Below, piece by piece: positions 27,154 to 55,573 of a DNA stretch of 64,000 nucleotides (its first letter is position 1; every line of letters begins with the position of its first letter). Origin of the DNA: Escherichia coli (lineage in GTDB: Bacteria > Pseudomonadota > Gammaproteobacteria > Enterobacterales > Enterobacteriaceae); the NCBI RefSeq assembly GCF_016903815.1, contig NZ_CP069973.1; one strand, 5' to 3'. The position numbers and the translations under genes are program-made. The notes below the pieces were generated by a model. That model was not told where the DNA came from. It made no database searches and saw only the letters and a list, made by a program, of their open reading frames with translations.

Positions 27154-28599
27154 TTATTTTAAAGGTGACGGTGTCACGTTTTTCGGGATAGGGCAGTGAT
27201 ACGGTTGCGTGTCCGTAACTTGCTGATGCTCTTGTTGGCATTCTTGCAATAGCCCTGAATCAATGAAGAGATTAAGTGTGGTTGCTGCCATAGTTTTCGC
27301 CGCCAGCAGCATTCCTTTATGAGCAATAGATGTTCGCCCCTGGCTAACCAGTTGCCACGTATGTAGCGGGGTACCGACGGCAAAGCAGGGGCTGAAACAC
27401 TGGGCAACAGGCAGTTTCCAACTGACGTCGCCGACATCAGTCGATGCCGCAAGCACGTTATCGGTGGCGGCATATGGAGCGACTTCATTCGCCAGTACCG
27501 TTTCACGATGACGTAGTGCAAAAGCCTTGCCGTTTTCGCCACCGGTTGCAGCGATATTATTCAGACTGTTTTGCCGATCGTTGGGGGTGAGCGTAGCCTG
27601 AATTTGTTTCGCAAAAGCCAGTTCTTCGCAGTTCCATTCCGGGGTACCAAAATGGGATAGGGCTCGGTACATGGCATTTTCTAAGGTGCGATTCGGGAGA
27701 TAACTGGAACAGGCTTTGTCGAAGCGGCATTCAACCGTGGTTTCGGTCATCAATGCCGCACCTTCGGCGATTTTGGCGACCCGATCATAAATATGCTGCA
27801 CATCGGTCATTTCGGGGGCGCGGATAAGATAAAGCACTTCTGCCTGCGCCTGGACCACGTTGGGCGAGATCCCGCCGCTATCTGTGATGGCATAGTGTAC
27901 GCGCGCTTTTTCAATAATATGTTCGTTGAGGAAGTTGGTGCCAGTGGTCATCAACGTTACGGCATCAAGGGCGCTGCGTCCCAAATGAGGGGAATTCGCG
28001 GCATGTGCTGCGATCCCTTTAAAGCGCCATGATGCCTGAATGTTTGCCAGCGTGCGGGTATTGAACATACCGGCAAAGGCTTCCGGGTGCCAGGTGAGTG
28101 CCGCATCCACATCATCAAATACCCCCTCGCGGACCATGAACGTTTTACCCGAGCCGCCTTCTTCGCCAGGACAACCATAAAAGCGCACCGTGCCGCATTG
28201 CCCATATTGTTCCAGCCATTTCTTGACGGCTATTGCTGCGGCAAAGGCGGCGGTTCCCAGCAAATTGTGTCCGCAACCGTGACCATTTTCACCGGGCGTC
28301 GCGGATGTAGGTTGCGCGCAACCTGCTTGCTGACTTAAACCTGCCAGGGCGTCATATTCCCCCAGCAGGGCGATAACCGGTTTGCCTTGACCAAACGAAG
28401 CAATAAAGGCATTTGGGATATTGCCTACGTTGCGGGTAACGGTGAAGCCTGCAGACTCCAGCGCCGAAGCCAGATGCTCCGCTGACCAGAACTCTTCAAA
28501 ACGTGTTTCTGGATGATCCCAGATTTGATCGGCAATATCGGTATAACGTTGGCGATCGGCTTCAATCGCATCGTCGATAAAACGATAGATTTCCTGCAT
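27154..28599 (-). CDS. abgB: p-Aminobenzoyl-glutamate hydrolase subunit B (M20 peptidase)
   Basis: 481 aa; M20 metal-binding motifs. Confidence 0.9.
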   Translation of the reverse strand: MQEIYRFIDDAIEADRQRYTDIADQIWDHPETRFEEFWSAEHLASALESAGFTVTRNVGNIPNAFIASFGQGKPVIALLGEYDALAGLSQQAGCAQPTSATPGENGHGCGHNLLGTAAFAAAIAVKKWLEQYGQCGTVRFYGCPGEEGGSGKTFMVREGVFDDVDAALTWHPEAFAGMFNTRTLANIQASWRFKGIAAHAANSPHLGRSALDAVTLMTTGTNFLNEHIIEKARVHYAITDSGGISPNVVQAQAEVLYLIRAPEMTDVQHIYDRVAKIAEGAALMTETTVECRFDKACSSYLPNRTLENAMYRALSHFGTPEWNCEELAFAKQIQATLTPNDRQNSLNNIAATGGENGKAFALRHRETVLANEVAPYAATDNVLAASTDVGDVSWKLPVAQCFSPCFAVGTPLHTWQLVSQGRTSIAHKGMLLAAKTMAATTLNLFIDSGLLQECQQEHQQVTDTQPYHCPIPKNVTPSPLK

Positions 28600-29909
28600 C
28601 AGATACCTCGCGTCCAGGGAAAATTGAGCGCGGTGCGCGCCAGCGTTTCGACGGCAATAGCGAGAACCTGCTCGTCAAAATCGAATTTTTCGTTGTGATG
28701 ACCTGCCGCCAGCTGTGTGCCAAACACCATATAGGAGGCTTGCCCTTGATGTTGCTGCACGCGGGCCATCATTAATGTGGCATCTTCGGAACCCGCAGGC
28801 GCTTCAACACGTTCAATGGCTTGATTGACCCCCGGGACCTGAGCTGCCTGACTTTGCAACCATGCGACCCATTGCGGCGAAGGAGAACTGGCGGTAGCTG
28901 CACCCATCAGACGAGTTTCAACGCCGACACCATACATGGTTGCTGCGCCCTGAATCGCTTGTTGTGCACGTTCAAAAACATATTGATTAATGACGTCGCT
29001 GGCCCCGCGTGTTTCCACTTTCAGCAACGCTGAGGCGGGAACAACATTACGACCGCTTCCTGCCTGCATAACGCCCACGTTTACTCTGGAAGCGCCTTCG
29101 CTGTGCGGGGCGATTGCATGCAGTGCAAGAGTTGCTTGTGCTGCCGCCAACAAGGCATTGTGACCGTCTTCTGGTTTTGCGCCTGCGTGAGCGGCGGTCC
29201 CGGTGAAGTGCGCGTCAAATTTGGTGGTTGCCATAAAATTATCACTGCCGCACACCACGGTGCCCGCAGGTACGCCAGTGCCAATGTGCACGGCAGTAAA
29301 ATAATCAACATCATCCACTACACCTGCATCGACCATCGCCCGCGCGCCACGCGTACCTTCTTCTGCAGGTTGAAAAATCAGTTTGATGACGCCATGTAGT
29401 CCGGACTCGAACTGTTTAAGGGTATGCGCCAGCCCAAGTCCAATGGCGGTATGTCCATCATGACCACAGGCATGCATCATTCCGGCGTTACATGACGCAA
29501 AACCGTCGCGGTAGGGGCGATGGCTGACATCCCGTTCTTCACTGAGATCCAGCGCGTCCATATCGACACGGAAAGCCATCACCGGACCGGGGCGACCGGT
29601 ATCCAGGGTAGCGACGATGCCAGTGAAACCGCCTTCAAAAGCCGCAATCCATTGTTCTAGCGCACCCTGTTGACGAGCGCGCTCGAATTCGCGTTGTAGA
29701 GTGAATTCATCAGGTAATCCCATCCGGCTACTTTCATTAACTACTTCGCGGCCCAGCGCCAGTGAATAACCGAGCTGGTGCAATTCTTCCGCAACAAGGG
29801 TGGCAGTGCGGAATTCCACCCAGCCAGACTCTGCATAGTGGTGAAAATCACGTCGCCAGTGCGATAATTTTGGGGCAAACGAATTAACAAATTGATTCAA
29901 AGACTCCAT
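28599..29909 (-). CDS. abgA: p-Aminobenzoyl-glutamate hydrolase subunit A (M20 peptidase)
   Basis: 436 aa from MESLNQFVNSF; 1 nt overlap with abgB. Confidence 0.9.
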   Translation of the reverse strand: MESLNQFVNSFAPKLSHWRRDFHHYAESGWVEFRTATLVAEELHQLGYSLALGREVVNESSRMGLPDEFTLQREFERARQQGALEQWIAAFEGGFTGIVATLDTGRPGPVMAFRVDMDALDLSEERDVSHRPYRDGFASCNAGMMHACGHDGHTAIGLGLAHTLKQFESGLHGVIKLIFQPAEEGTRGARAMVDAGVVDDVDYFTAVHIGTGVPAGTVVCGSDNFMATTKFDAHFTGTAAHAGAKPEDGHNALLAAAQATLALHAIAPHSEGASRVNVGVMQAGSGRNVVPASALLKVETRGASDVINQYVFERAQQAIQGAATMYGVGVETRLMGAATASSPSPQWVAWLQSQAAQVPGVNQAIERVEAPAGSEDATLMMARVQQHQGQASYMVFGTQLAAGHHNEKFDFDEQVLAIAVETLARTALNFPWTRGI

Positions 29910-30084
29910 AACCTTTCCCGTCATCAGTAAAAAGTGTGACCCGGTTCACGTAGCGATAGTTTTTACTTATCACTAACTGATTTTTCACAGTTTTAACCGT
30001 TCATAAATTACCCTGACACAATCATCTGCATTAAAGTAGATGCCAGTTTCTTTGGTCTGATAAATAACGGTTATCGGTGGCGTC

Positions 30085-30993
30085 ATGGCTTTTCAGGTAA
30101 AAATTCATCAAATTCGGGCTTTTGTTGAAGTGGCTCGTCAGGGCAGCATTCGCGGAGCGAGCCGAATGTTGAATATGTCGCAACCGGCACTGAGTAAATC
30201 TATTCAGGAGCTGGAAGAAGGGTTGGCGGCACAACTCTTTTTTCGCCGTAGTAAAGGCGTGACGTTAACTGATGCCGGTGAAAGTTTTTATCAGCACGCC
30301 AGTCTTATTCTTGAAGAGCTGCGCGCAGCGCAAGAGGATATTCGCCAACGACAAGGGCAACTGGCAGGGCAAATTAATATCGGCATGGGGGCCAGTATTT
30401 CCCGCAGTCTGATGCCAGCTGTCATATCTCGTTTTCATCAGCAGCATCCGCAGGTAAAAGTACGCATTATGGAAGGGCAACTGGTGTCGATGATTAATGA
30501 ATTGCGCCAGGGAGAACTGGATTTCACCATCAATACCTATTATCAGGGACCCTACGACCACGAATTTACTTTTGAGAAATTACTGGAAAAGCAATTCGCG
30601 ATCTTTTGCCGCCCGGGACATCCCGCCATTGGTGCCCGTTCGATCAAACAGTTACTGGACTACAGCTGGACAATGCCGACGCCACACGGCAGCTACTACA
30701 AACAGTTGAGTGAATTGCTTGACGATCAGGCGCAAACGCCACAGGTCGGTGTAGTCTGCGAGACGTTCTCAGCCTGTATCAGTCTGGTGGCAAAAAGCGA
30801 TTTTCTCAGCATACTACCTGAAGAAATGGGCTGCGATCCCTTGCACGGACAGGGGCTGGTGATGTTGCCGGTTAGCGAAATTTTACCGAAAGCGACCTAT
30901 TATTTGATTCAGCGGCGTGATAGTCGCCAGACACCACTGACCGCGTCATTAATCACGCAATTTCGGCGAGAATGCGGCTATCTGCAAAGTTAA
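30085..30993 (+). CDS. abgR: LysR-family regulator of the abg operon
   Basis: 302 aa; LysR HTH; divergent from abgA. Confidence 0.9.
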   Translation: MAFQVKIHQIRAFVEVARQGSIRGASRMLNMSQPALSKSIQELEEGLAAQLFFRRSKGVTLTDAGESFYQHASLILEELRAAQEDIRQRQGQLAGQINIGMGASISRSLMPAVISRFHQQHPQVKVRIMEGQLVSMINELRQGELDFTINTYYQGPYDHEFTFEKLLEKQFAIFCRPGHPAIGARSIKQLLDYSWTMPTPHGSYYKQLSELLDDQAQTPQVGVVCETFSACISLVAKSDFLSILPEEMGCDPLHGQGLVMLPVSEILPKATYYLIQRRDSRQTPLTASLITQFRRECGYLQS

Positions 30994-31001
30994 AACTGCA
31001 T

Positions 31002-31095
31002 AAAAAAATAGAGCCTGTCGACATCCGCCAGACTCTACAGTACACACAGCAGTGCATCCTCGTCTTAAATCCGGCCTGGGGTCCTGGTGGCCGGT
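31002..31095 (-). ncRNA. mcaS: McaS (IsrA) small regulatory RNA
   Basis: Minus-strand sequence matches remembered McaS; terminal hairpin followed by U7. Confidence 0.7.
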
Positions 31096-31165
31096 GACAG
31101 TGTTATAACGGTTTTACCCATCCGTTGCCAATTTTCTTCAGTGACAGATTTCACGAAAATATAAG

Positions 31166-31981
31166 TTAAATCATTTGTCTTGTGATTGCATAATCATGCA
31201 TCGTTAATCGACGAGTAAATTTACCGGGCGAGTAGCCCGTTCGACGCTTAAACATATTGCCGAACGATTCAGCTGAGGCATAGCCCAGACGATGGGCAAT
31301 TTTGGTCAACGAATATCCATCATCAAGAAGCGTCACTGCAGAAATAACGTGCATTTGCTGAACCCAGTGGCGAAATGTTAATCCCGTCTCTTTAACAAAT
31401 AAGCGCATGAGTGTACGGCTACTGACGTTAATTTTATCCGCTAGATTATCCAGTGTTGGCAGATACCCTTGGTTGTTTAGCAAATTCTCACAAAGCTGCT
31501 GTAGCCGCTCATCATTTGGCCAAGGGAGTTCAAGTGACATTTTCACCCCCATTTTTATTTCCTGAAGTATCAGTGTCTCGAGGGCTGAAAAACGTAACTG
31601 TTGTTTATCTGTGGTACTTTGCGACGGTGGAAGTTGGTTAATTGCAATTAGTAATTCCCTTAACAGGGGTGAAATACCCGTCATGAAGCAAACTTTTCCC
31701 AGCGTTTCACTTTCCGCTTCTGAAACCAGTACGGTTTTTAAAAGTACGTTGCCTGTCGCAACAAACTTATGCGGCATTTGTGGGGGCAGCCAAAGCGCGC
31801 TGCTGGCATGCACTAACCAGACGCTTTCTCCAGCCCATACACGAACGACTCCTTCAGCCGGGTAAAGCAACTGGGCATAGAGATGTTTATGCCAGGGAAC
31901 TGTGCCTCCATTCAGATGTTCCGAATCCAGTCCGATAATGTGATGCCCTGGTGATGCTTTGGGTTGCAGTGTGATTGTCAT
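31166..31981 (-). CDS. AraC/XylS-family regulator with cupin-like N-domain
   Basis: 271 aa; C-terminal double HTH; divergent from the efflux genes. Confidence 0.8.
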   Translation of the reverse strand: MTITLQPKASPGHHIIGLDSEHLNGGTVPWHKHLYAQLLYPAEGVVRVWAGESVWLVHASSALWLPPQMPHKFVATGNVLLKTVLVSEAESETLGKVCFMTGISPLLRELLIAINQLPPSQSTTDKQQLRFSALETLILQEIKMGVKMSLELPWPNDERLQQLCENLLNNQGYLPTLDNLADKINVSSRTLMRLFVKETGLTFRHWVQQMHVISAVTLLDDGYSLTKIAHRLGYASAESFGNMFKRRTGYSPGKFTRRLTMHDYAITRQMI

Positions 31982-32077
31982 TTACAGTAGGTATTTTGTC
32001 AGAAATCATCAAATAAGCCATGTTAAATTTTAAATATGACGAATGCAAGTTTCCGGATATATACGGTGTAAAGAGTG

Positions 32078-33106
32078 ATGATAATTTCTAAAAAACAGCT
32101 TATTGGGGTGGTAGCGATCGGTATTATTTTGGCTGGCGTTGCCTTTTTTATCTGGTGGGTAAGCAAAGGAAGATTTATACAGACGACGGATGATGCTTAC
32201 ATTGGTGGTAATATCACCACGGTGGCAAGTAAAGTTTCTGGTTATATTTCTGCTATAGAGGTGCGCGATAATCAGAGCGTAAAAAAAGGCGATATTATCC
32301 TGCGTCTCGATGATCGGGATTATCGTGCAAATGTCGCCAGGCTTGAGGCAAAAATAAAAAGTAGCAAAGCCAATCTCGAAAGCATTCAAGCCACTATTAC
32401 GATGCAGCAGTCGATAATTCAAAGTGCCAGTGAAACATGGCAGGCAGTAAAACATGAGGAGCAAAAGCGCCTGCGAGATACTGAACGTTATGAAAAACTC
32501 GCACAATCAGCGGCAATATCGCAACAAGTTATTGATAACGCAAGGTTTGACTACCAGCAGGTCACAGCAAAGGAGCGCAAAGCCGCGAACGATTTCATGG
32601 TGGAGAAGCAACGGCTGGCAGTTTTATCTGCTCAGGAAGAAAACGTACGTGCAAGTATCGAAGAAGTTCAGGCCGCTTTGACTCAGGCACTACTGGATCT
32701 GGAATATACCCTTGTTCGTGCGCCGATTGATGGCATTGTCGCAAACCGCAGCGCCCATACAGGCAGTTGGGTGGAAGGCGGCACATCGTTAGTTTCACTA
32801 GTACCAGTCAGTGAGTTGTGGGTTGATGCAAATTATAAAGAAAACCAAATAGCGGGAATGAAGCCAGGAATGAAGGCTGAGATCCGTGCTGATATTCTCA
32901 AAGGGGAAGTGTTTCACGGTCACATTGAAAGCCTTTCCCCAGCGACAGGAGCCAGTTTCAGCTTGATTCCGATAGAAAATGCCACTGGCAATTTCACCAA
33001 AATTGTTCAGCGTGTCCCGGTACGGATTGCATTTGACGACGCAAAGGAATTAAAGCAACTTCTTCGCCCGGGGCTGTCCGTCACCGTCAGTGTTGATGAG
33101 AGATGA
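32078..33106 (+). CDS. HlyD/EmrA-family membrane fusion protein of a multidrug efflux pump
   Basis: about 342 aa; N-terminal TM anchor, coiled coil, beta-barrel region like EmrA/EmrK. Confidence 0.8.
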   Translation: MIISKKQLIGVVAIGIILAGVAFFIWWVSKGRFIQTTDDAYIGGNITTVASKVSGYISAIEVRDNQSVKKGDIILRLDDRDYRANVARLEAKIKSSKANLESIQATITMQQSIIQSASETWQAVKHEEQKRLRDTERYEKLAQSAAISQQVIDNARFDYQQVTAKERKAANDFMVEKQRLAVLSAQEENVRASIEEVQAALTQALLDLEYTLVRAPIDGIVANRSAHTGSWVEGGTSLVSLVPVSELWVDANYKENQIAGMKPGMKAEIRADILKGEVFHGHIESLSPATGASFSLIPIENATGNFTKIVQRVPVRIAFDDAKELKQLLRPGLSVTVSVDER

Positions 33107-34617
33107 TGTCTATGCGTAAACATATTGCTTTCGCCAGTATGTGTATGGGATTATTTATTGCTCAGCTTGATATTCAAATTGTATCGTCATCCCTAAATGA
33201 AATAGGTGGTGGTCTGTCCGCAGGTAAAGACGAAATGGCCTGGCTTCAGACCAGCTATTTAATTGCTGAGATTATTGTTATTCCGCTCTCTGGGTGGCTG
33301 TCACGGGTATTTTCCACTCGTTGGCTTTTTACTCTATCCGCGGGAATATTTACTTTAATGAGTATCGCGTGTGGACTTGCATGGAATATTCAGATCATGA
33401 TTTTGTTTCGTGCTTTACAGGGAGCGGCTGGCGCATCCATGATCCCTTTAGTTTTCACGACGGCGTTTATTTATTACCAGGGTAAAGAGTTGGGGTTGGC
33501 TGCTGCGGTAGTCAGTGCGCTGGCCTCACTGTCACCGACGCTAGGGCCAACTCTGGGGGGCTGGATCACTGATAACCTCGACTGGCGATGGCTATTTTAT
33601 ATCAATATATTACCTGGCATATATTTAGTTTTGAGTATTCCTTTTCTGGTTAATTTTGATAAACCTGATCTCTCTTTACTGAAAGTTGCTGATTATCCGA
33701 GTATTATCCTGTTGGCCATGACACTGGGATGTCTGGAATATACCCTTGAAGAAGGAGCGCGCTGGGGATGGCTGGATGATAATACTATTTTGCTGACATC
33801 AGTTCTGGCATTGGTGAGTTTTATTTTATTTGCTGCGCGTACACTTACAATATCCAATCCGATAATGGATCTTCATGCTTTTAAGGATAAAAATTTCACG
33901 CTGGGATGTTTTTTTTCTTTTTCTGGAGGGGTTGGGATATTCTCTACTGTATATTTAATACCTATGTTTTTGGGGCAGGTTCGCGGATTAAATGCCGAAG
34001 AGATAGGTTTTGCCGTTTGCACAACAGGTATTTTCCAGTTATTTTCTGTTCCCTTTTACTTCTGGTTAAGTAAAAAAATAAATCTGCGATGGCTGTTGAT
34101 GGCGGGGCTGGGTGGGTTTGTGTTTTCAATGTATCTTTTTACCCCTATAACCCACGAATGGGGATGGCAGGAGTTACTGTTTCCACAGGCAATTAGAGGG
34201 ATTTCGCAGCAGTTTGCGATGGCCCCCATCGTAACATTAACGCTGGGGGGAACTCCAAAAGAACGGCTGAAGTTAGCCTCTGGTGTATTTAATTTAACAC
34301 GTAATCTTGGGGGCGCGATTGGTATTGCCCTGTGTGGCTCTATTCTCAATAATCGAACTAATTTTCATTTTTCGAGAATGGGTGAAAAAATGGTTTCTGT
34401 TCCCCATACGGTGAATGACTTCATTTCCAGAAGTGCTTTGTTTTTTAATCGCAGTGGAAGTGACCAGACATCGGAAATACTAGCTTCAACCAAATTATTG
34501 AGTCAATTGATGCTGAGGGAGGCGCAAACTATGGCATTTTCGGATACCTTTCTGCTAATCAGTGGTCTGTTATTTATCGCATTTTTGTTGGTTCCTGCTA
34601 TGAATAAATCATCCTGA
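33103..34617 (+). CDS. MFS DHA2-family (EmrB/EmrY-like, 14-TMS) efflux transporter
   Basis: 504 aa; LDIQIVSSSL / GLFIAQLD motifs; 4 nt overlap with the fusion-protein gene; low GC. Confidence 0.8.
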   Translation: MMSMRKHIAFASMCMGLFIAQLDIQIVSSSLNEIGGGLSAGKDEMAWLQTSYLIAEIIVIPLSGWLSRVFSTRWLFTLSAGIFTLMSIACGLAWNIQIMILFRALQGAAGASMIPLVFTTAFIYYQGKELGLAAAVVSALASLSPTLGPTLGGWITDNLDWRWLFYINILPGIYLVLSIPFLVNFDKPDLSLLKVADYPSIILLAMTLGCLEYTLEEGARWGWLDDNTILLTSVLALVSFILFAARTLTISNPIMDLHAFKDKNFTLGCFFSFSGGVGIFSTVYLIPMFLGQVRGLNAEEIGFAVCTTGIFQLFSVPFYFWLSKKINLRWLLMAGLGGFVFSMYLFTPITHEWGWQELLFPQAIRGISQQFAMAPIVTLTLGGTPKERLKLASGVFNLTRNLGGAIGIALCGSILNNRTNFHFSRMGEKMVSVPHTVNDFISRSALFFNRSGSDQTSEILASTKLLSQLMLREAQTMAFSDTFLLISGLLFIAFLLVPAMNKSS

Positions 34618-34811
34618 TCGGAGCCTGTGCTGAATTAAACTCGGGCTAAACTGTTCGATACTGCTAACAGGCTAGTATAAAATGCCCCGCCTGCGCAGAT
34701 ACTCACAGGTATGAAGTAGAGTATTGTTTCAATCTGTGAAGGGAACGATGCAGTAAGTATGAACAATTAACCCGTCTGAATCACGACGTGTGAAGCTGCA
34801 TAGGAGGTTAC

Positions 34812-54925: not shown

Positions 54926-55447
54926 TGAAAATTCCTCAAGTTGGAGAGTTCTGGAACATTAAGGCGAGGTGGCAGTAATGCACCATCTGTAATCTTTTGA
55001 TACTGACGTAATCGGGCCTGATGTGCAACGCCTTGCAAGTATGTAACTCATTGAAAACGATCATTTTTATCTATTGACATCAAATGGCAAACTGTCATTG
55101 TGCGGCTATGGCAAGTGGCAAATGCTTATAAATCATATGGATATAAATAGTACAGAAAGAGTTGTTTTCTCTAGGATATGAGTATACGCCCAATGCTGAT
55201 TGGTTGAATTTTGTTCTTGTTTTAAAGGGTAAGAGTTTAAAGTGTTGGCAGTGATGTATTGGATAGTTAGAATTGCTGTGGGTGCTTGAGGCTATCTGCC
55301 TCGGGCATGAACACCAAAGGTAGATAGAGAAAAGCCCCAGTTAACATTACGCGTCCTGCAAGACGTTTAACATTAATCTGAGGCCATATCTATGCGACAC
55401 ATAGAGATTAGCCTCTTACGGACCGAAAGGTCAAGGAGAAGCAGGCT

Positions 55448-55573
55448 ATGAAGCAGCAAAAGGCGATGTTAATCGCCCTGATCGTCATCTGTTTAACCGT
55501 CATAGTGACGGCACTGGTAACGAGGAAAGACCTCTGCGAGGTACGAATCCGAACTGGCAGACGGAGGCTCTGA
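55448..55573 (+). CDS. Hok/Gef-family type I toxin homolog (HokD-like) with divergent C-terminus
   Basis: MKQQKAMLIALIVICLTVIVTALVTRKDLCEVRIRTG matches HokD N-terminus; frame then ends early (41 aa vs about 51); short upstream ORF ends on the hok ATG. Confidence 0.65.
   Translation: MKQQKAMLIALIVICLTVIVTALVTRKDLCEVRIRTGRRRL

What the first reader, a model, noticed from the sequence alone, without database searches (positions are those of the whole stretch)
31096..34811. 3.7 kb low-GC island between mcaS and smrA: AraC regulator plus EmrA/EmrB-like efflux pair
In K-12 as I recall it, smrA follows mcaS within about 200 bp. Here a divergent AraC-family regulator (31166-31981) and a coupled membrane-fusion protein / 14-TMS MFS transporter pair (32078-34617) sit between them, with visibly lower GC than the flanking genes. 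It is a strain-variable third EmrAB/EmrKY-type efflux module with its own regulator; substrate unknown.
Basis: partly seen in the sequence, partly recalled or inferred. Interest (0 to 1): 0.4.

Follow-up and report, generated by a model that had tools for sequence, protein, structure and literature searches.

The report
Strain-variable EmrAB-like efflux module
Between the small RNA gene mcaS and smrA this E. coli strain carries three extra genes, a regulator plus a two-part drug-efflux pump distantly related to EmrAB, which about a quarter of E. coli genomes have and K-12 lacks; it is real and intact but an ordinary, uncharacterised member of a well-known pump class.

Summary
AraC-family regulator (31166-31981, -), membrane-fusion protein (32078-33106, +) and 14-helix DHA2 MFS transporter (33103-34617, +, ATGA overlap) lie between mcaS and smrA at 44% GC, against 51-52% in the flanks. 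K-12 has only a 227-bp spacer there.

Island DNA is in 1455 of 5426 complete E. coli genomes, including ST131, APEC and CFT073. The pump junction survives in only 1229; ST73-type strains lost about 1.85 kb.

The pump is not an emrAB or emrKY duplicate: 28-31% identity. It has the EmrAB architecture. The EmrB residues tested by mutagenesis are conserved, the periplasmic helix bundle is present, and EmrB in EmrAB-TolC is the best structural match (TM 0.89). There is no outer-membrane gene, so TolC is inferred. The substrate is unknown.

Three additions:
- RefSeq labels the transporter "frameshifted" in every sampled record, because its reference is a truncated Shigella allele. The 504-aa ORF is open here.
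- Island synonymous divergence is 4-8 times lower than in the flanks, and the left junction sits at the orthologs' AraC stop codon. Both favour gain and lateral spread over loss in K-12.
- A 71%-identical 3.56-kb cassette occurs at three unrelated sites in Kluyvera and another enterobacterium.

It is a new member of a known kind, of modest interest.

The parts
31000..31095 (-). mcaS (McaS/IsrA sRNA), the left flanking landmark. The allele differs from K-12 in the loop of the 5' hairpin.
   Evidence: Rfam RF00115, 114.5 bits, full length; alignment with K-12, ST131 and E69.
31096..31201 (-). mcaS promoter region shared with K-12 (87.7% identity). It includes a CRP-like palindrome at 31141-31154 and the last 12 codons plus stop of the AraC ORF (31166-31201). 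This is host spacer DNA, not island DNA.
   Evidence: K-12 homology begins within about 3 nt of where the Kluyvera/Citrobacter AraC orthologs stop.
31166..31981 (-). AraC/XylS-family regulator, 271 aa: N-terminal cupin/AraC_binding domain (residues about 25-88) and C-terminal HTH_18 (180-258). It is transcribed divergently from the pump and co-directionally with mcaS.
   Evidence: Pfam HTH_18 6.9e-22, AraC_binding 1.5e-8, Cupin_2 5.2e-7. No NCBIfam equivalog reached. dN/dS 0-0.15 within Escherichia. Kept in 1451 of 1457 carrier genomes.
31982..32077 (.). 96-bp divergent control region between the regulator and the pump operon. A block around 31996-32032 is conserved with the 71%-identical Kluyvera-type cassette.
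   Evidence: Alignment A3; weak sigma-70-like matches on both strands. The promoter and operator assignment is inferred.
32078..33106 (+). Membrane-fusion (periplasmic adaptor) protein, 342 aa (343 from GTG 32075): N-terminal TM anchor, lipoyl, alpha-hairpin and beta-barrel domains. No membrane-proximal domain and no EmrA-type C-terminal helix.
   Evidence: Pfam HlyD_D23, HlyD_3 and Biotin_lipoyl_2. TIGR00998 EmrA/EmrK scores 268 bits, below the 390.8 cut-off. Best PDB sequence match is EmrA 8zar at 4e-44. Alignment A4 and residue mapping. Single TM at 8-26.
33103..34617 (+). DHA2-family 14-helix MFS proton antiporter, 504 aa. The ORF is intact. Its start overlaps the MFP stop (ATGA).
   Evidence: TIGR00711 scores 403 bits against a cut-off of 230. 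The ORF aligns without gaps with 505-aa orthologs to the last residue. AlphaFold pLDDT 87.6; best structural match is EmrB 8zal_J with TM 0.89/0.91. D23, R103, Q106, N397 and R400 correspond to EmrB D29, R109, Q112, N403 and R406.
34618..34765 (.). Island-specific 3' non-coding DNA. Recognisable similarity to the K-12 smrA leader resumes only about 45 bp before the smrA ATG.
   Evidence: No plus-strand intrinsic terminator was predicted here.
34812..35375 (+). smrA, the right flanking landmark.
   Evidence: NCBIfam NF033154 SmrA, 253 bits.

Best explanation
This is an accessory three-gene efflux module. The MFS protein is a proton-driven DHA2 antiporter. Its partner, an EmrA-type adaptor anchored in the inner membrane, would form a hexameric periplasmic tube. 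Because the module has no outer-membrane gene, that tube would dock onto the chromosomal TolC, giving a one-step EmrAB-TolC-like export route for a small, probably hydrophobic or aromatic toxic compound. The divergently transcribed AraC/XylS regulator, through its cupin ligand-binding domain, would switch the operon on in response to that compound or a related one.

Shown here: the gene content and intact ORFs, the family assignments, conservation of the experimentally critical EmrB and EmrA residues and of the periplasmic helix bundle, purifying selection, strain distribution and lineage-specific decay.

Inferred: the TolC partnership, the 3:6:1 stoichiometry, activation rather than repression by the AraC protein, and the substrate class.

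Evolutionarily, the module is more likely a gain in Escherichia that then spread between lineages by recombination than an ancestral segment deleted from K-12.
For: Family and fold:
- MFS passes TIGR00711 (403 bits against 230).
- The AlphaFold model (pLDDT 87.6) superposes on EmrB of the EmrAB-TolC cryo-EM structure at TM 0.89/0.91 and rmsd 2.6 A.
- The model shows helices 386-432, 434-450 and 455-499, matching the periplasmic extended helix bundle that PMC13139468 shows is required for assembly.

Residues:
- EmrB D29 and R109 (loss of resistance when mutated) and Q112, N403 and R406 are invariant as D23, R103, Q106, N397 and R400 across 20 homologs.
- EmrA ring-1 L302/L303 corresponds to L296/I297, and the beta-barrel conserved loop NATGN..K.VQR.PVR is retained.

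Coupling and partner:
- The MFP and MFS genes overlap as ATGA.
- Paraburkholderia homologs (51-52% identical) sit in MarR-MFP-MFS-OEP operons, so the clade works as a tripartite pump. The enterobacterial cassettes lack an OMF gene.

Regulator:
- The AraC-MFP-MFS order is conserved in Kluyvera-type cassettes.
- The nearest AraC relatives outside the cassette (Acinetobacter, 40-44% identical) are also divergent to MFS exporters.

Selection:
- Against L008 orthologs, synonymous sites are saturated (pS 0.73-0.79) while dN is 0.10-0.22.
- Within E. coli, dN/dS is 0.15-0.31 for the MFS.

Gain and spread:
- Island dS is 0.011-0.018 against 0.075-0.109 in the flanks (window versus ST131).
- It is 0.08-0.18 against 0.34-1.0 (window versus E69).
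- GC is 44% against 51%.
- K-12 homology starts at the orthologs' AraC stop position.
Against: - No experiment or expression data exists for this locus, and no paper was found.
- The MFP lacks the EmrA C-terminal helix (residues 375-390) that packs on the hairpin, and its hairpin is about 10 residues longer. Docking geometry could therefore differ.
- EmrA ring-2 residue I313 is Thr here and throughout the clade.
- The MFP scores below the EmrA/EmrK subfamily cut-off.
- The pump genes are broken in many carriers: about 139 genomes have large deletions, about 87 have a 204-bp deletion, and there are IS1 insertions and frameshifts. MFP dN/dS reaches 0.7 on few substitutions. The pump is at best conditionally useful.
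- Relatives at 62% identity use a different regulator, HxlR. The AraC link is therefore specific to this sub-clade.
- The polarity argument is not decisive. The right junction shows no clean homology to K-12, and K-12 has about 75 bp of its own.
Confidence: 0.72

Rival explanations
1. The module is a decaying relic. The ORFs happen to be open in this strain, but the pump is no longer expressed or useful in E. coli and is on its way to loss.
For: At least 226 of 1455 carriers have structural deletions in the pump genes. Other lesions include an IS1 insertion (H47), true frameshifts in TUM13881 and E69, a 328-aa truncated allele cluster P0100 and an in-frame deletion allele P0095, and a truncated Shigella flexneri allele. 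Island dN/dS is higher than in the flanking core genes. RefSeq annotates the gene as a pseudogene.
Against: The RefSeq 'frameshift' is an artefact of a truncated reference allele. Eight of nine full-length loci sampled have the complete 504-aa ORF. The exact window protein is found on 789 contigs. MFS dN/dS of 0.15-0.31 and retention of all catalytic residues argue for continuing constraint. The deletions are few clonal events, not many independent ones.
Confidence: 0.15
2. The pair exports an endogenous metabolite or signal (for example a fatty acid, an aromatic acid or a siderophore-like product) rather than xenobiotics. The AraC protein would sense that metabolite.
For: The regulator has a cupin/AraC_binding sensor domain typical of metabolite-responsive AraC proteins. 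The 62%-identical Raoultella pair is followed by a ketoacyl-synthase gene. From general knowledge of the family, other EmrAB-type pumps export fatty acids (FarAB) or bile (VceAB).
Against: No biosynthetic gene lies in or beside the E. coli island or the Kluyvera-type cassette, and the neighbours differ at every insertion site. A free-standing regulator-plus-pump cassette is the usual layout of a detoxification module.
Confidence: 0.1
3. The segment is ancestral to E. coli, and K-12-type strains carry a deletion scar. On this reading it is not an acquired island.
For: K-12 retains, in register, 27 of 36 nt of the last 12 AraC codons and the same TAA. The module sits at the same mcaS-smrA site in E69, a genome about 92% identical to E. 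coli that the one-genome-per-species collection lists separately. The E. coli copy is saturated at synonymous sites relative to other genera, so it is not a recent import from them.
Against: Those 36 nt lie beyond the stop codon of the orthologous AraC genes. The E. coli ORF reaches them only through a 1-nt gap near its end, so they look like host spacer DNA rather than a gene remnant. Island dS is 4-8 times lower than in the flanking genes, both between phylogroups and against E69. GC3 is 10-15 points below the flanks.
Confidence: 0.25

Closest known systems
EmrAB-TolC of E. coli (DHA2 MFS tripartite pump; PDB 8zal/8zar; PMC13139468)
   Same: Gene order of MFP then 14-helix DHA2 transporter. 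Best sequence and structural match for both proteins. Conserved D29/R109/Q112/N403/R406 equivalents, the periplasmic helix bundle, the EmrA beta-barrel conserved loop and hydrophobic ring-1. An adaptor without a membrane-proximal domain. No OMF gene in the operon.
   Different: Only 28% (MFS) and 31% (MFP) identity. The adaptor lacks the C-terminal coil and helix, has a hairpin about 10 residues longer, and has Thr at the ring-2 I313 position. It is regulated by a divergent AraC-type protein instead of the MarR-type MprA upstream of emrAB. It is accessory rather than core.
EmrKY of E. coli
   Same: Same two-gene architecture and family. Comparable distance: 30% (MFS) and 31% (MFP) identity.
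   Different: EmrKY is a close paralog of EmrAB (62% and 49%), whereas this pair is an outgroup to both. EmrKY lies next to evgAS. This pair has its own AraC regulator.
Orthologous AraC-MFP-MFS cassette of Kluyvera cryocrescens, Citrobacter, Salmonella salamae, Pluralibacter and others
   Same: Identical gene order and sizes: 262, 343-344 and 505 aa. Identity is 80%, 68% and 82%.
   Different: About 71% nucleotide identity. The cassette is a 3563-bp unit, 99-99.6% identical at three unrelated sites, and bounded by REP-like hairpins that the E. coli copy lacks. Its AraC ends 9 residues earlier.
MarR-MFP-MFS-OMF operons of Paraburkholderia
   Same: MFS 51-52% identical, with the same adaptor type.
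   Different: They carry their own outer-membrane factor and a MarR regulator.

Membership tests
DHA2 (14-TMS drug:H+ antiporter-2) family of the MFS | Match to the curated family model above its cut-off | tested here: met
   TIGR00711 scores 403.2 bits against a cut-off of 230.2, covering residues 9-496.
DHA2 (14-TMS drug:H+ antiporter-2) family of the MFS | Fourteen transmembrane helices | tested here: met
   The AlphaFold model (pLDDT 87.6, pTM 0.83) superposes on 14-helix EmrB at TM 0.89/0.91, and on QacA at 0.84. The crude hydropathy scan alone was incomplete.
DHA2 (14-TMS drug:H+ antiporter-2) family of the MFS | Antiporter motifs and proton-coupling residues (motif D Asp in TM1, motif B Arg in TM4, motif C GP..GG in TM5) | tested here: met
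   LD23IQIV, LFR103ALQ106G and SPTLGPTLGG are present. They are invariant in 20 homologs.
EmrB itself (NCBIfam NF000391) | Score above the EmrB model cut-off | tested here: not met
   218 bits against a cut-off of 925; 28% identity.
EmrA/EmrK adaptor subfamily (TIGR00998) | Score above the subfamily cut-off | tested here: not met
   268.1 bits against a cut-off of 390.8, although the match is full length at 7-340. The protein lacks the EmrA C-terminal helix.
EmrAB-type MFS tripartite pump (functional class) | [quoted passage not shown] | tested here: met
   Single TM at 8-26. Pfam domains. The loop FSLIPIENATGNFTKIVQRVPVRI aligns to EmrA 294-317, and the protein ends directly after the barrel.
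EmrAB-type MFS tripartite pump (functional class) | Periplasmic extended helix bundle between the 13th and 14th helices of the transporter | tested here: met
   Model helices 386-432, 434-450 and 455-499. The aligned region is 73 residues against 65 in EmrB.
EmrAB-type MFS tripartite pump (functional class) | Assembly with an outer-membrane channel (TolC) and dependence of efflux on it | not testable with these tools
   There is no OMF gene in the island. Distant homologs have an adjacent OEP gene. The TolC partnership is inferred.
AraC/XylS transcription factors | C-terminal double helix-turn-helix domain plus an N-terminal ligand or dimerisation domain | tested here: met
   HTH_18 at 180-258 (6.9e-22); AraC_binding/Cupin_2 at 25-88.
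Classical genomic island | Variable presence and deviant composition | tested here: met
   Present in 27% of genomes. GC is 44% against 51%.
Classical genomic island | Integrase or transposase, tRNA attachment site, flanking direct repeats | tested here: not met
   None of the three ORFs is a mobility gene. There are no flanking repeats. A tRNA scan was not run, but the flanks are mcaS and smrA.

The most novel reading that the evidence does not exclude
The AraC regulator may have a role beyond the pump, and the island may rewire McaS expression in B2-type E. coli. The regulator is kept almost without exception (1451 of 1457 carriers) and under strong constraint, even where the pump is deleted (CFT073, ATCC 25922, NC101). 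Its ORF ends 70 nt upstream of the mcaS start, overlaps the mcaS promoter-upstream region, and has no predicted terminator in between. Island-positive strains also carry a different mcaS 5' hairpin loop. Read-through, promoter occlusion or direct regulation could therefore couple a chemical signal to the McaS-controlled choice between curli, motility and PGA.
Probability: 0.1. Interest if true: 0.55.

Novelty: new member of a known kind. Interest (0 to 1): 0.3.

Why it matters
About one in five complete E. coli genomes, including the pandemic ST131 lineage and avian-pathogenic strains, encodes a third, apparently intact EmrAB-type efflux pump with its own sensor-regulator. K-12-based efflux inventories miss it.

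RefSeq compounds this by labelling the transporter a pseudogene. It therefore has no RefSeq protein accession in these genomes and would drop out of analyses that skip annotated pseudogenes.

If the pump has a substrate of clinical or gut relevance, such as bile, fatty acids, quinolone-like compounds or nitroxoline, it would be a lineage-specific contributor to tolerance. Otherwise it is a tidy example of an accessory pump being gained, shared by recombination and lost again.

Tried and rejected
1. I first read the 36 nt that K-12 shares with the AraC 3' end as a deletion scar. Comparison with the orthologs showed those codons lie beyond the native stop, so I no longer treat them as evidence for loss.
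2. The PGAP 'frameshifted' flag first suggested a dead transporter. I rejected this after the gap-free alignment to orthologs, the ORF checks, and the identification of the truncated Shigella reference allele.
3. Five literature searches aimed at this locus used family terms, gene names, RefSeq accessions and 'EmrAB-like'. They found nothing on it.
4. The peptide-pattern scan of species-representative genomes returned only 7 loci. It could not say whether E. albertii or E. fergusonii carry the island.
5. A search for flanking direct or inverted repeats around the E. coli island found only chance-level matches.
6. A megablast of the Kluyvera-type cassette against 72,556 plasmids found no match. 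Plasmid carriage is therefore not the explanation for its mobility.
7. A simple hydropathy scan under-counted helices for both this protein and EmrB. I replaced it with the structure prediction.
8. H30, a candidate third haplotype, turned out to be the K-12 type with an IS1 insertion.
Full report
**What is there.** The window is E. coli; the finding's interval (31096-34811) is 100% identical to strain 7/2, NZ_CP023820. The local gene order is as follows.

| Feature | Coordinates | Strand | Evidence |
|---|---|---|---|
| abgA, abgR | 28599-29924; 30085-30993 | -, + | |
| mcaS | 31000-31095 | - | Rfam, 114.5 bits |
| AraC-family ORF, 271 aa | 31166-31981 | - | |
| Intergenic region, 96 bp | 31982-32077 |. 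| |
| HlyD/EmrA-type adaptor | 32078-33106 | + | |
| DHA2 MFS ORF, 504 aa | 33103-34617 | + | |
| smrA | 34812-35375 | + | |

The MFS ATG overlaps the adaptor's TGA as ATGA. The three genes have 42-46% GC and GC3 of 40-43%. The flanks have 51-52% GC.

**Strain variability.**
- K-12 has abgR-mcaS-227 bp-smrA and none of the three genes.
- Of 5426 complete E. coli genomes, 1455 carry adaptor and transporter DNA, and 1316 cover at least 80% of it.
- 1457 carry the AraC gene, 1451 of them essentially complete.
- Only 1229 retain the adaptor/transporter junction segment.
- Carriers include O25b:H4-ST131, APEC BEN2908, CFT073, ATCC 25922 and NC101. From general knowledge these are phylogroup B2.
- Many carriers have also lost the abg operon and read fnr-ogt-abgT'-abgR'-mcaS-AraC.... 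The window strain, and a few like it, keep abg.
- About 3888 genomes show the K-12-type spacer.

**Decay in some lineages.**
- CFT073-type strains retain AraC but have lost about 1.85 kb spanning most of both pump genes.
- About 87 genomes (1316 minus 1229) have a 204-bp deletion fusing the two genes.
- One sampled genome has an IS1 insertion in the transporter (H47).
- TUM13881 and E69 have true frameshifts.
- Truncated or internally deleted alleles exist as protein clusters.

In the window all three ORFs are intact.

**The RefSeq 'pseudogene' call is an artefact.**
- Every full-length RefSeq record I opened annotates the transporter as 'frameshifted'. The coordinates correspond to 33103-34558, so the annotated gene ends at a stop in the +1 frame.
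- Yet the 504-aa frame is open in the window and in 7 of 8 other full-length E. coli loci.
- It aligns without a single gap, to the last residue, with 505-aa orthologs from Citrobacter, Kluyvera and Salmonella at 82% identity.
- The cluster holding the window protein contains Shigella flexneri proteins of 484 and 488 aa; the 488-aa one is WP_162471458.1. They end ...AFSVPFC*, which is the result of a 1-nt deletion that moves into that +1 frame and removes helix 14.
- PGAP evidently aligns intact E. coli alleles to that truncated reference.
- The exact window protein occurs on 789 contigs.

**What the proteins are.**
- *Transporter.* It passes the DHA2 family model (TIGR00711, 403 bits against 230) but not the EmrB-specific model (218 against 925).
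- *Adaptor.* It matches the EmrA/EmrK model end to end but scores below its cut-off (268 against 390.8).
- *Identities.* 28% to EmrB, 30% to EmrY, and 31% to EmrA and EmrK. EmrB and EmrY share 62%, and EmrA and EmrK share 49%. The pair is an outgroup to both K-12 systems, not a duplicate of either.
- *Solved structures.* The closest are EmrB and EmrA from the EmrAB-TolC cryo-EM complex.
- *Model.* An AlphaFold model of the transporter (pLDDT 87.6) superposes on that EmrB at TM 0.89/0.91 and rmsd 2.6 A.

**Comparison with the EmrAB-TolC structure.** The paper describing that structure (PMC13139468) gives testable features.

| EmrAB feature (PMC13139468) | State in the window proteins |
|---|---|
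| EmrB D29 and R109, whose mutation abolishes resistance | D23 and R103, invariant in 20 homologs |
| EmrB Q112 | Q106, invariant |
| Cytoplasmic-gate residues I120, P121, N403, R406 | I114, P115, N397, R400, invariant |
| EmrB D221 | E216 |
| Periplasmic extended helix bundle between helices 13 and 14, which plugs into the EmrA ring | Present in the model (helices 386-432, 434-450, 455-499) |
| EmrA beta-barrel conserved loop | Retained |
| EmrA hydrophobic ring-1, L302/L303 | L296/I297 |
| EmrA ring-2, I313/V315/V316 | T307/I309/V310 |
| EmrA alpha-hairpin | About 10 residues longer |
| EmrA C-terminal coil and helix, 347-390 | Absent |

**Outer-membrane partner and regulator.**
- The island has no outer-membrane factor gene.
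- Paraburkholderia homologs (51-52% identical) lie in MarR-adaptor-MFS-OEP operons. This supports tripartite function, with TolC as the inferred partner in E. coli.
- The regulator has a cupin/AraC_binding sensor domain and a complete HTH_18 domain.
- The same divergent regulator-pump arrangement is conserved in the orthologous cassettes.
- Its nearest relatives outside the cassette (Acinetobacter, 40-44% identical) are also divergent to MFS exporters.
- A sequence block in the 96-bp control region is conserved between the E. coli and Kluyvera-type versions. Its role as promoter or operator is inferred.

**Origin.** Two facts first suggested an ancestral segment lost from K-12. K-12 shares, in register, 27 of 36 nt with the last 12 AraC codons. 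The module also sits at the same mcaS-smrA site in E69, a genome only about 92% identical to E. coli that the one-genome-per-species collection lists separately.

Two further tests point the other way.
1. The orthologous AraC genes stop 9 residues earlier. The E. coli gene has a 1-nt gap near its end and reads on into exactly the DNA that K-12 shares. K-12 homology therefore begins within about 3 nt of the native stop, as expected if a cassette was inserted into a pre-existing spacer.
2. Synonymous divergence of the island genes is 4-8 times lower than in the flanking smrA, dgcM and zntB.

| Comparison | Island dS | Flank dS |
|---|---|---|
| Window vs ST131 | 0.011-0.018 | 0.075-0.109 |
| Window vs E69 | 0.08-0.18 | 0.34-1.0 |

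Together with the low GC3, I favour gain followed by spread among Escherichia lineages through recombination in the flanks. I cannot exclude the alternative. The right junction is not clean, and K-12 has about 75 bp of its own there.

The source is not the sampled Kluyvera/Citrobacter cassette. That one is only 71% identical, with saturated synonymous sites.

**The cassette elsewhere.** In Kluyvera cryocrescens and at least one other enterobacterial species, the orthologous unit is 3563 bp long. It is 99.0-99.6% identical at three unrelated chromosomal sites. It has sharp ends lying in REP-like hairpins (GAGCGGACGT ... ACGTCCGCTC). It was not found on plasmids.

**Selection.**
- Against the Kluyvera-type orthologs, dN is 0.10-0.22 with saturated dS.
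- Within Escherichia, dN/dS is 0-0.15 for AraC, 0.15-0.31 for the transporter, and 0.2-0.7 for the adaptor, the last on very few substitutions.
- The genes have been maintained by selection, but less tightly than the neighbouring core genes.

**Verdict.** This is an accessory, regulator-equipped, EmrAB-like MFS tripartite efflux module of unknown substrate. It is intact in this strain and already named generically in databases, and I found no published characterisation of it. It is a new member of a known kind. The most useful by-products are the RefSeq mis-annotation and the evidence that the module is exchanged and eroded within Escherichia.

Noticed in passing
window 33103-34617 (RefSeq equivalent 33103-34558): RefSeq/PGAP marks this intact 504-aa transporter gene 'frameshifted' in every full-length E. 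coli record opened. The cause is a truncated Shigella flexneri reference allele (WP_162471458.1, ending ...AFSVPFC*).
   Followed up: yes
window 31166-31213: Relative to the 262-aa orthologs, the E. coli AraC gene has a 1-nt gap near its end. This replaces ...SASIK* with a 16-residue tail (TRRLTMHDYAITRQMI) that runs into the mcaS promoter-upstream DNA shared with K-12.
   Followed up: yes
window 31166-31981 and E. coli genomes generally: The regulator is retained in 1451 of 1457 carrier genomes, whereas the pump junction survives in only 1229. CFT073, ATCC 25922 and NC101 have an orphan AraC next to mcaS. No terminator is predicted between the AraC stop and the mcaS start.
   Followed up: partly
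window 31070-31095 (mcaS 5' end): The loop of the first McaS hairpin differs between island-positive strains (CACCGGCCACCAGGACCCCAGGCCGG) and K-12 (CACCGGCGCAGAGGAGACAATGCCGG). The stem is kept.
   Followed up: no
window 35396-37405: dgcM (diguanylate cyclase DgcM) is split by an IS1 element at about 36338-37105. The 310-aa C-terminal part and a short N-terminal remnant remain, so this strain probably lacks DgcM.
   Followed up: partly
L008 6018-9582; L011 6008-9598; L015 6018-9582: The orthologous AraC-MFP-MFS cassette is a 3.56-kb unit, 99-99.6% identical at three unrelated sites. Its ends lie in REP-like hairpins (GAGCGGACGT / ACGTCCGCTC). The means of movement is unknown.
   Followed up: partly
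proteins P0111, P0115, P0116, P0118: Some 61-62% identical homologs are single 866-867-aa proteins with the adaptor domains fused to the MFS transporter.
   Followed up: no
L004, L005, L023, L024 (B2-type strains), upstream of mcaS: In many island-positive strains the abgT-abgB-abgA-abgR operon is reduced to short abgT and abgR remnants between ogt and mcaS. E69 has no abg genes there at all.
   Followed up: no
L026 3420-7857 (Raoultella-type locus): The 62%-identical adaptor/MFS pair is preceded by an HxlR-family regulator and followed by a ketoacyl-synthase gene. This is a different regulatory and possibly metabolic context.
   Followed up: no
window 38739-38856, 43166-43344, 55280-55450: Rfam also finds FnrS, RalA (a Rac-prophage antitoxin sRNA) and a Sok antitoxin RNA elsewhere in the window.
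   Followed up: no
One to six of the island matches are on records labelled as plasmids. These were not inspected.
   Followed up: no
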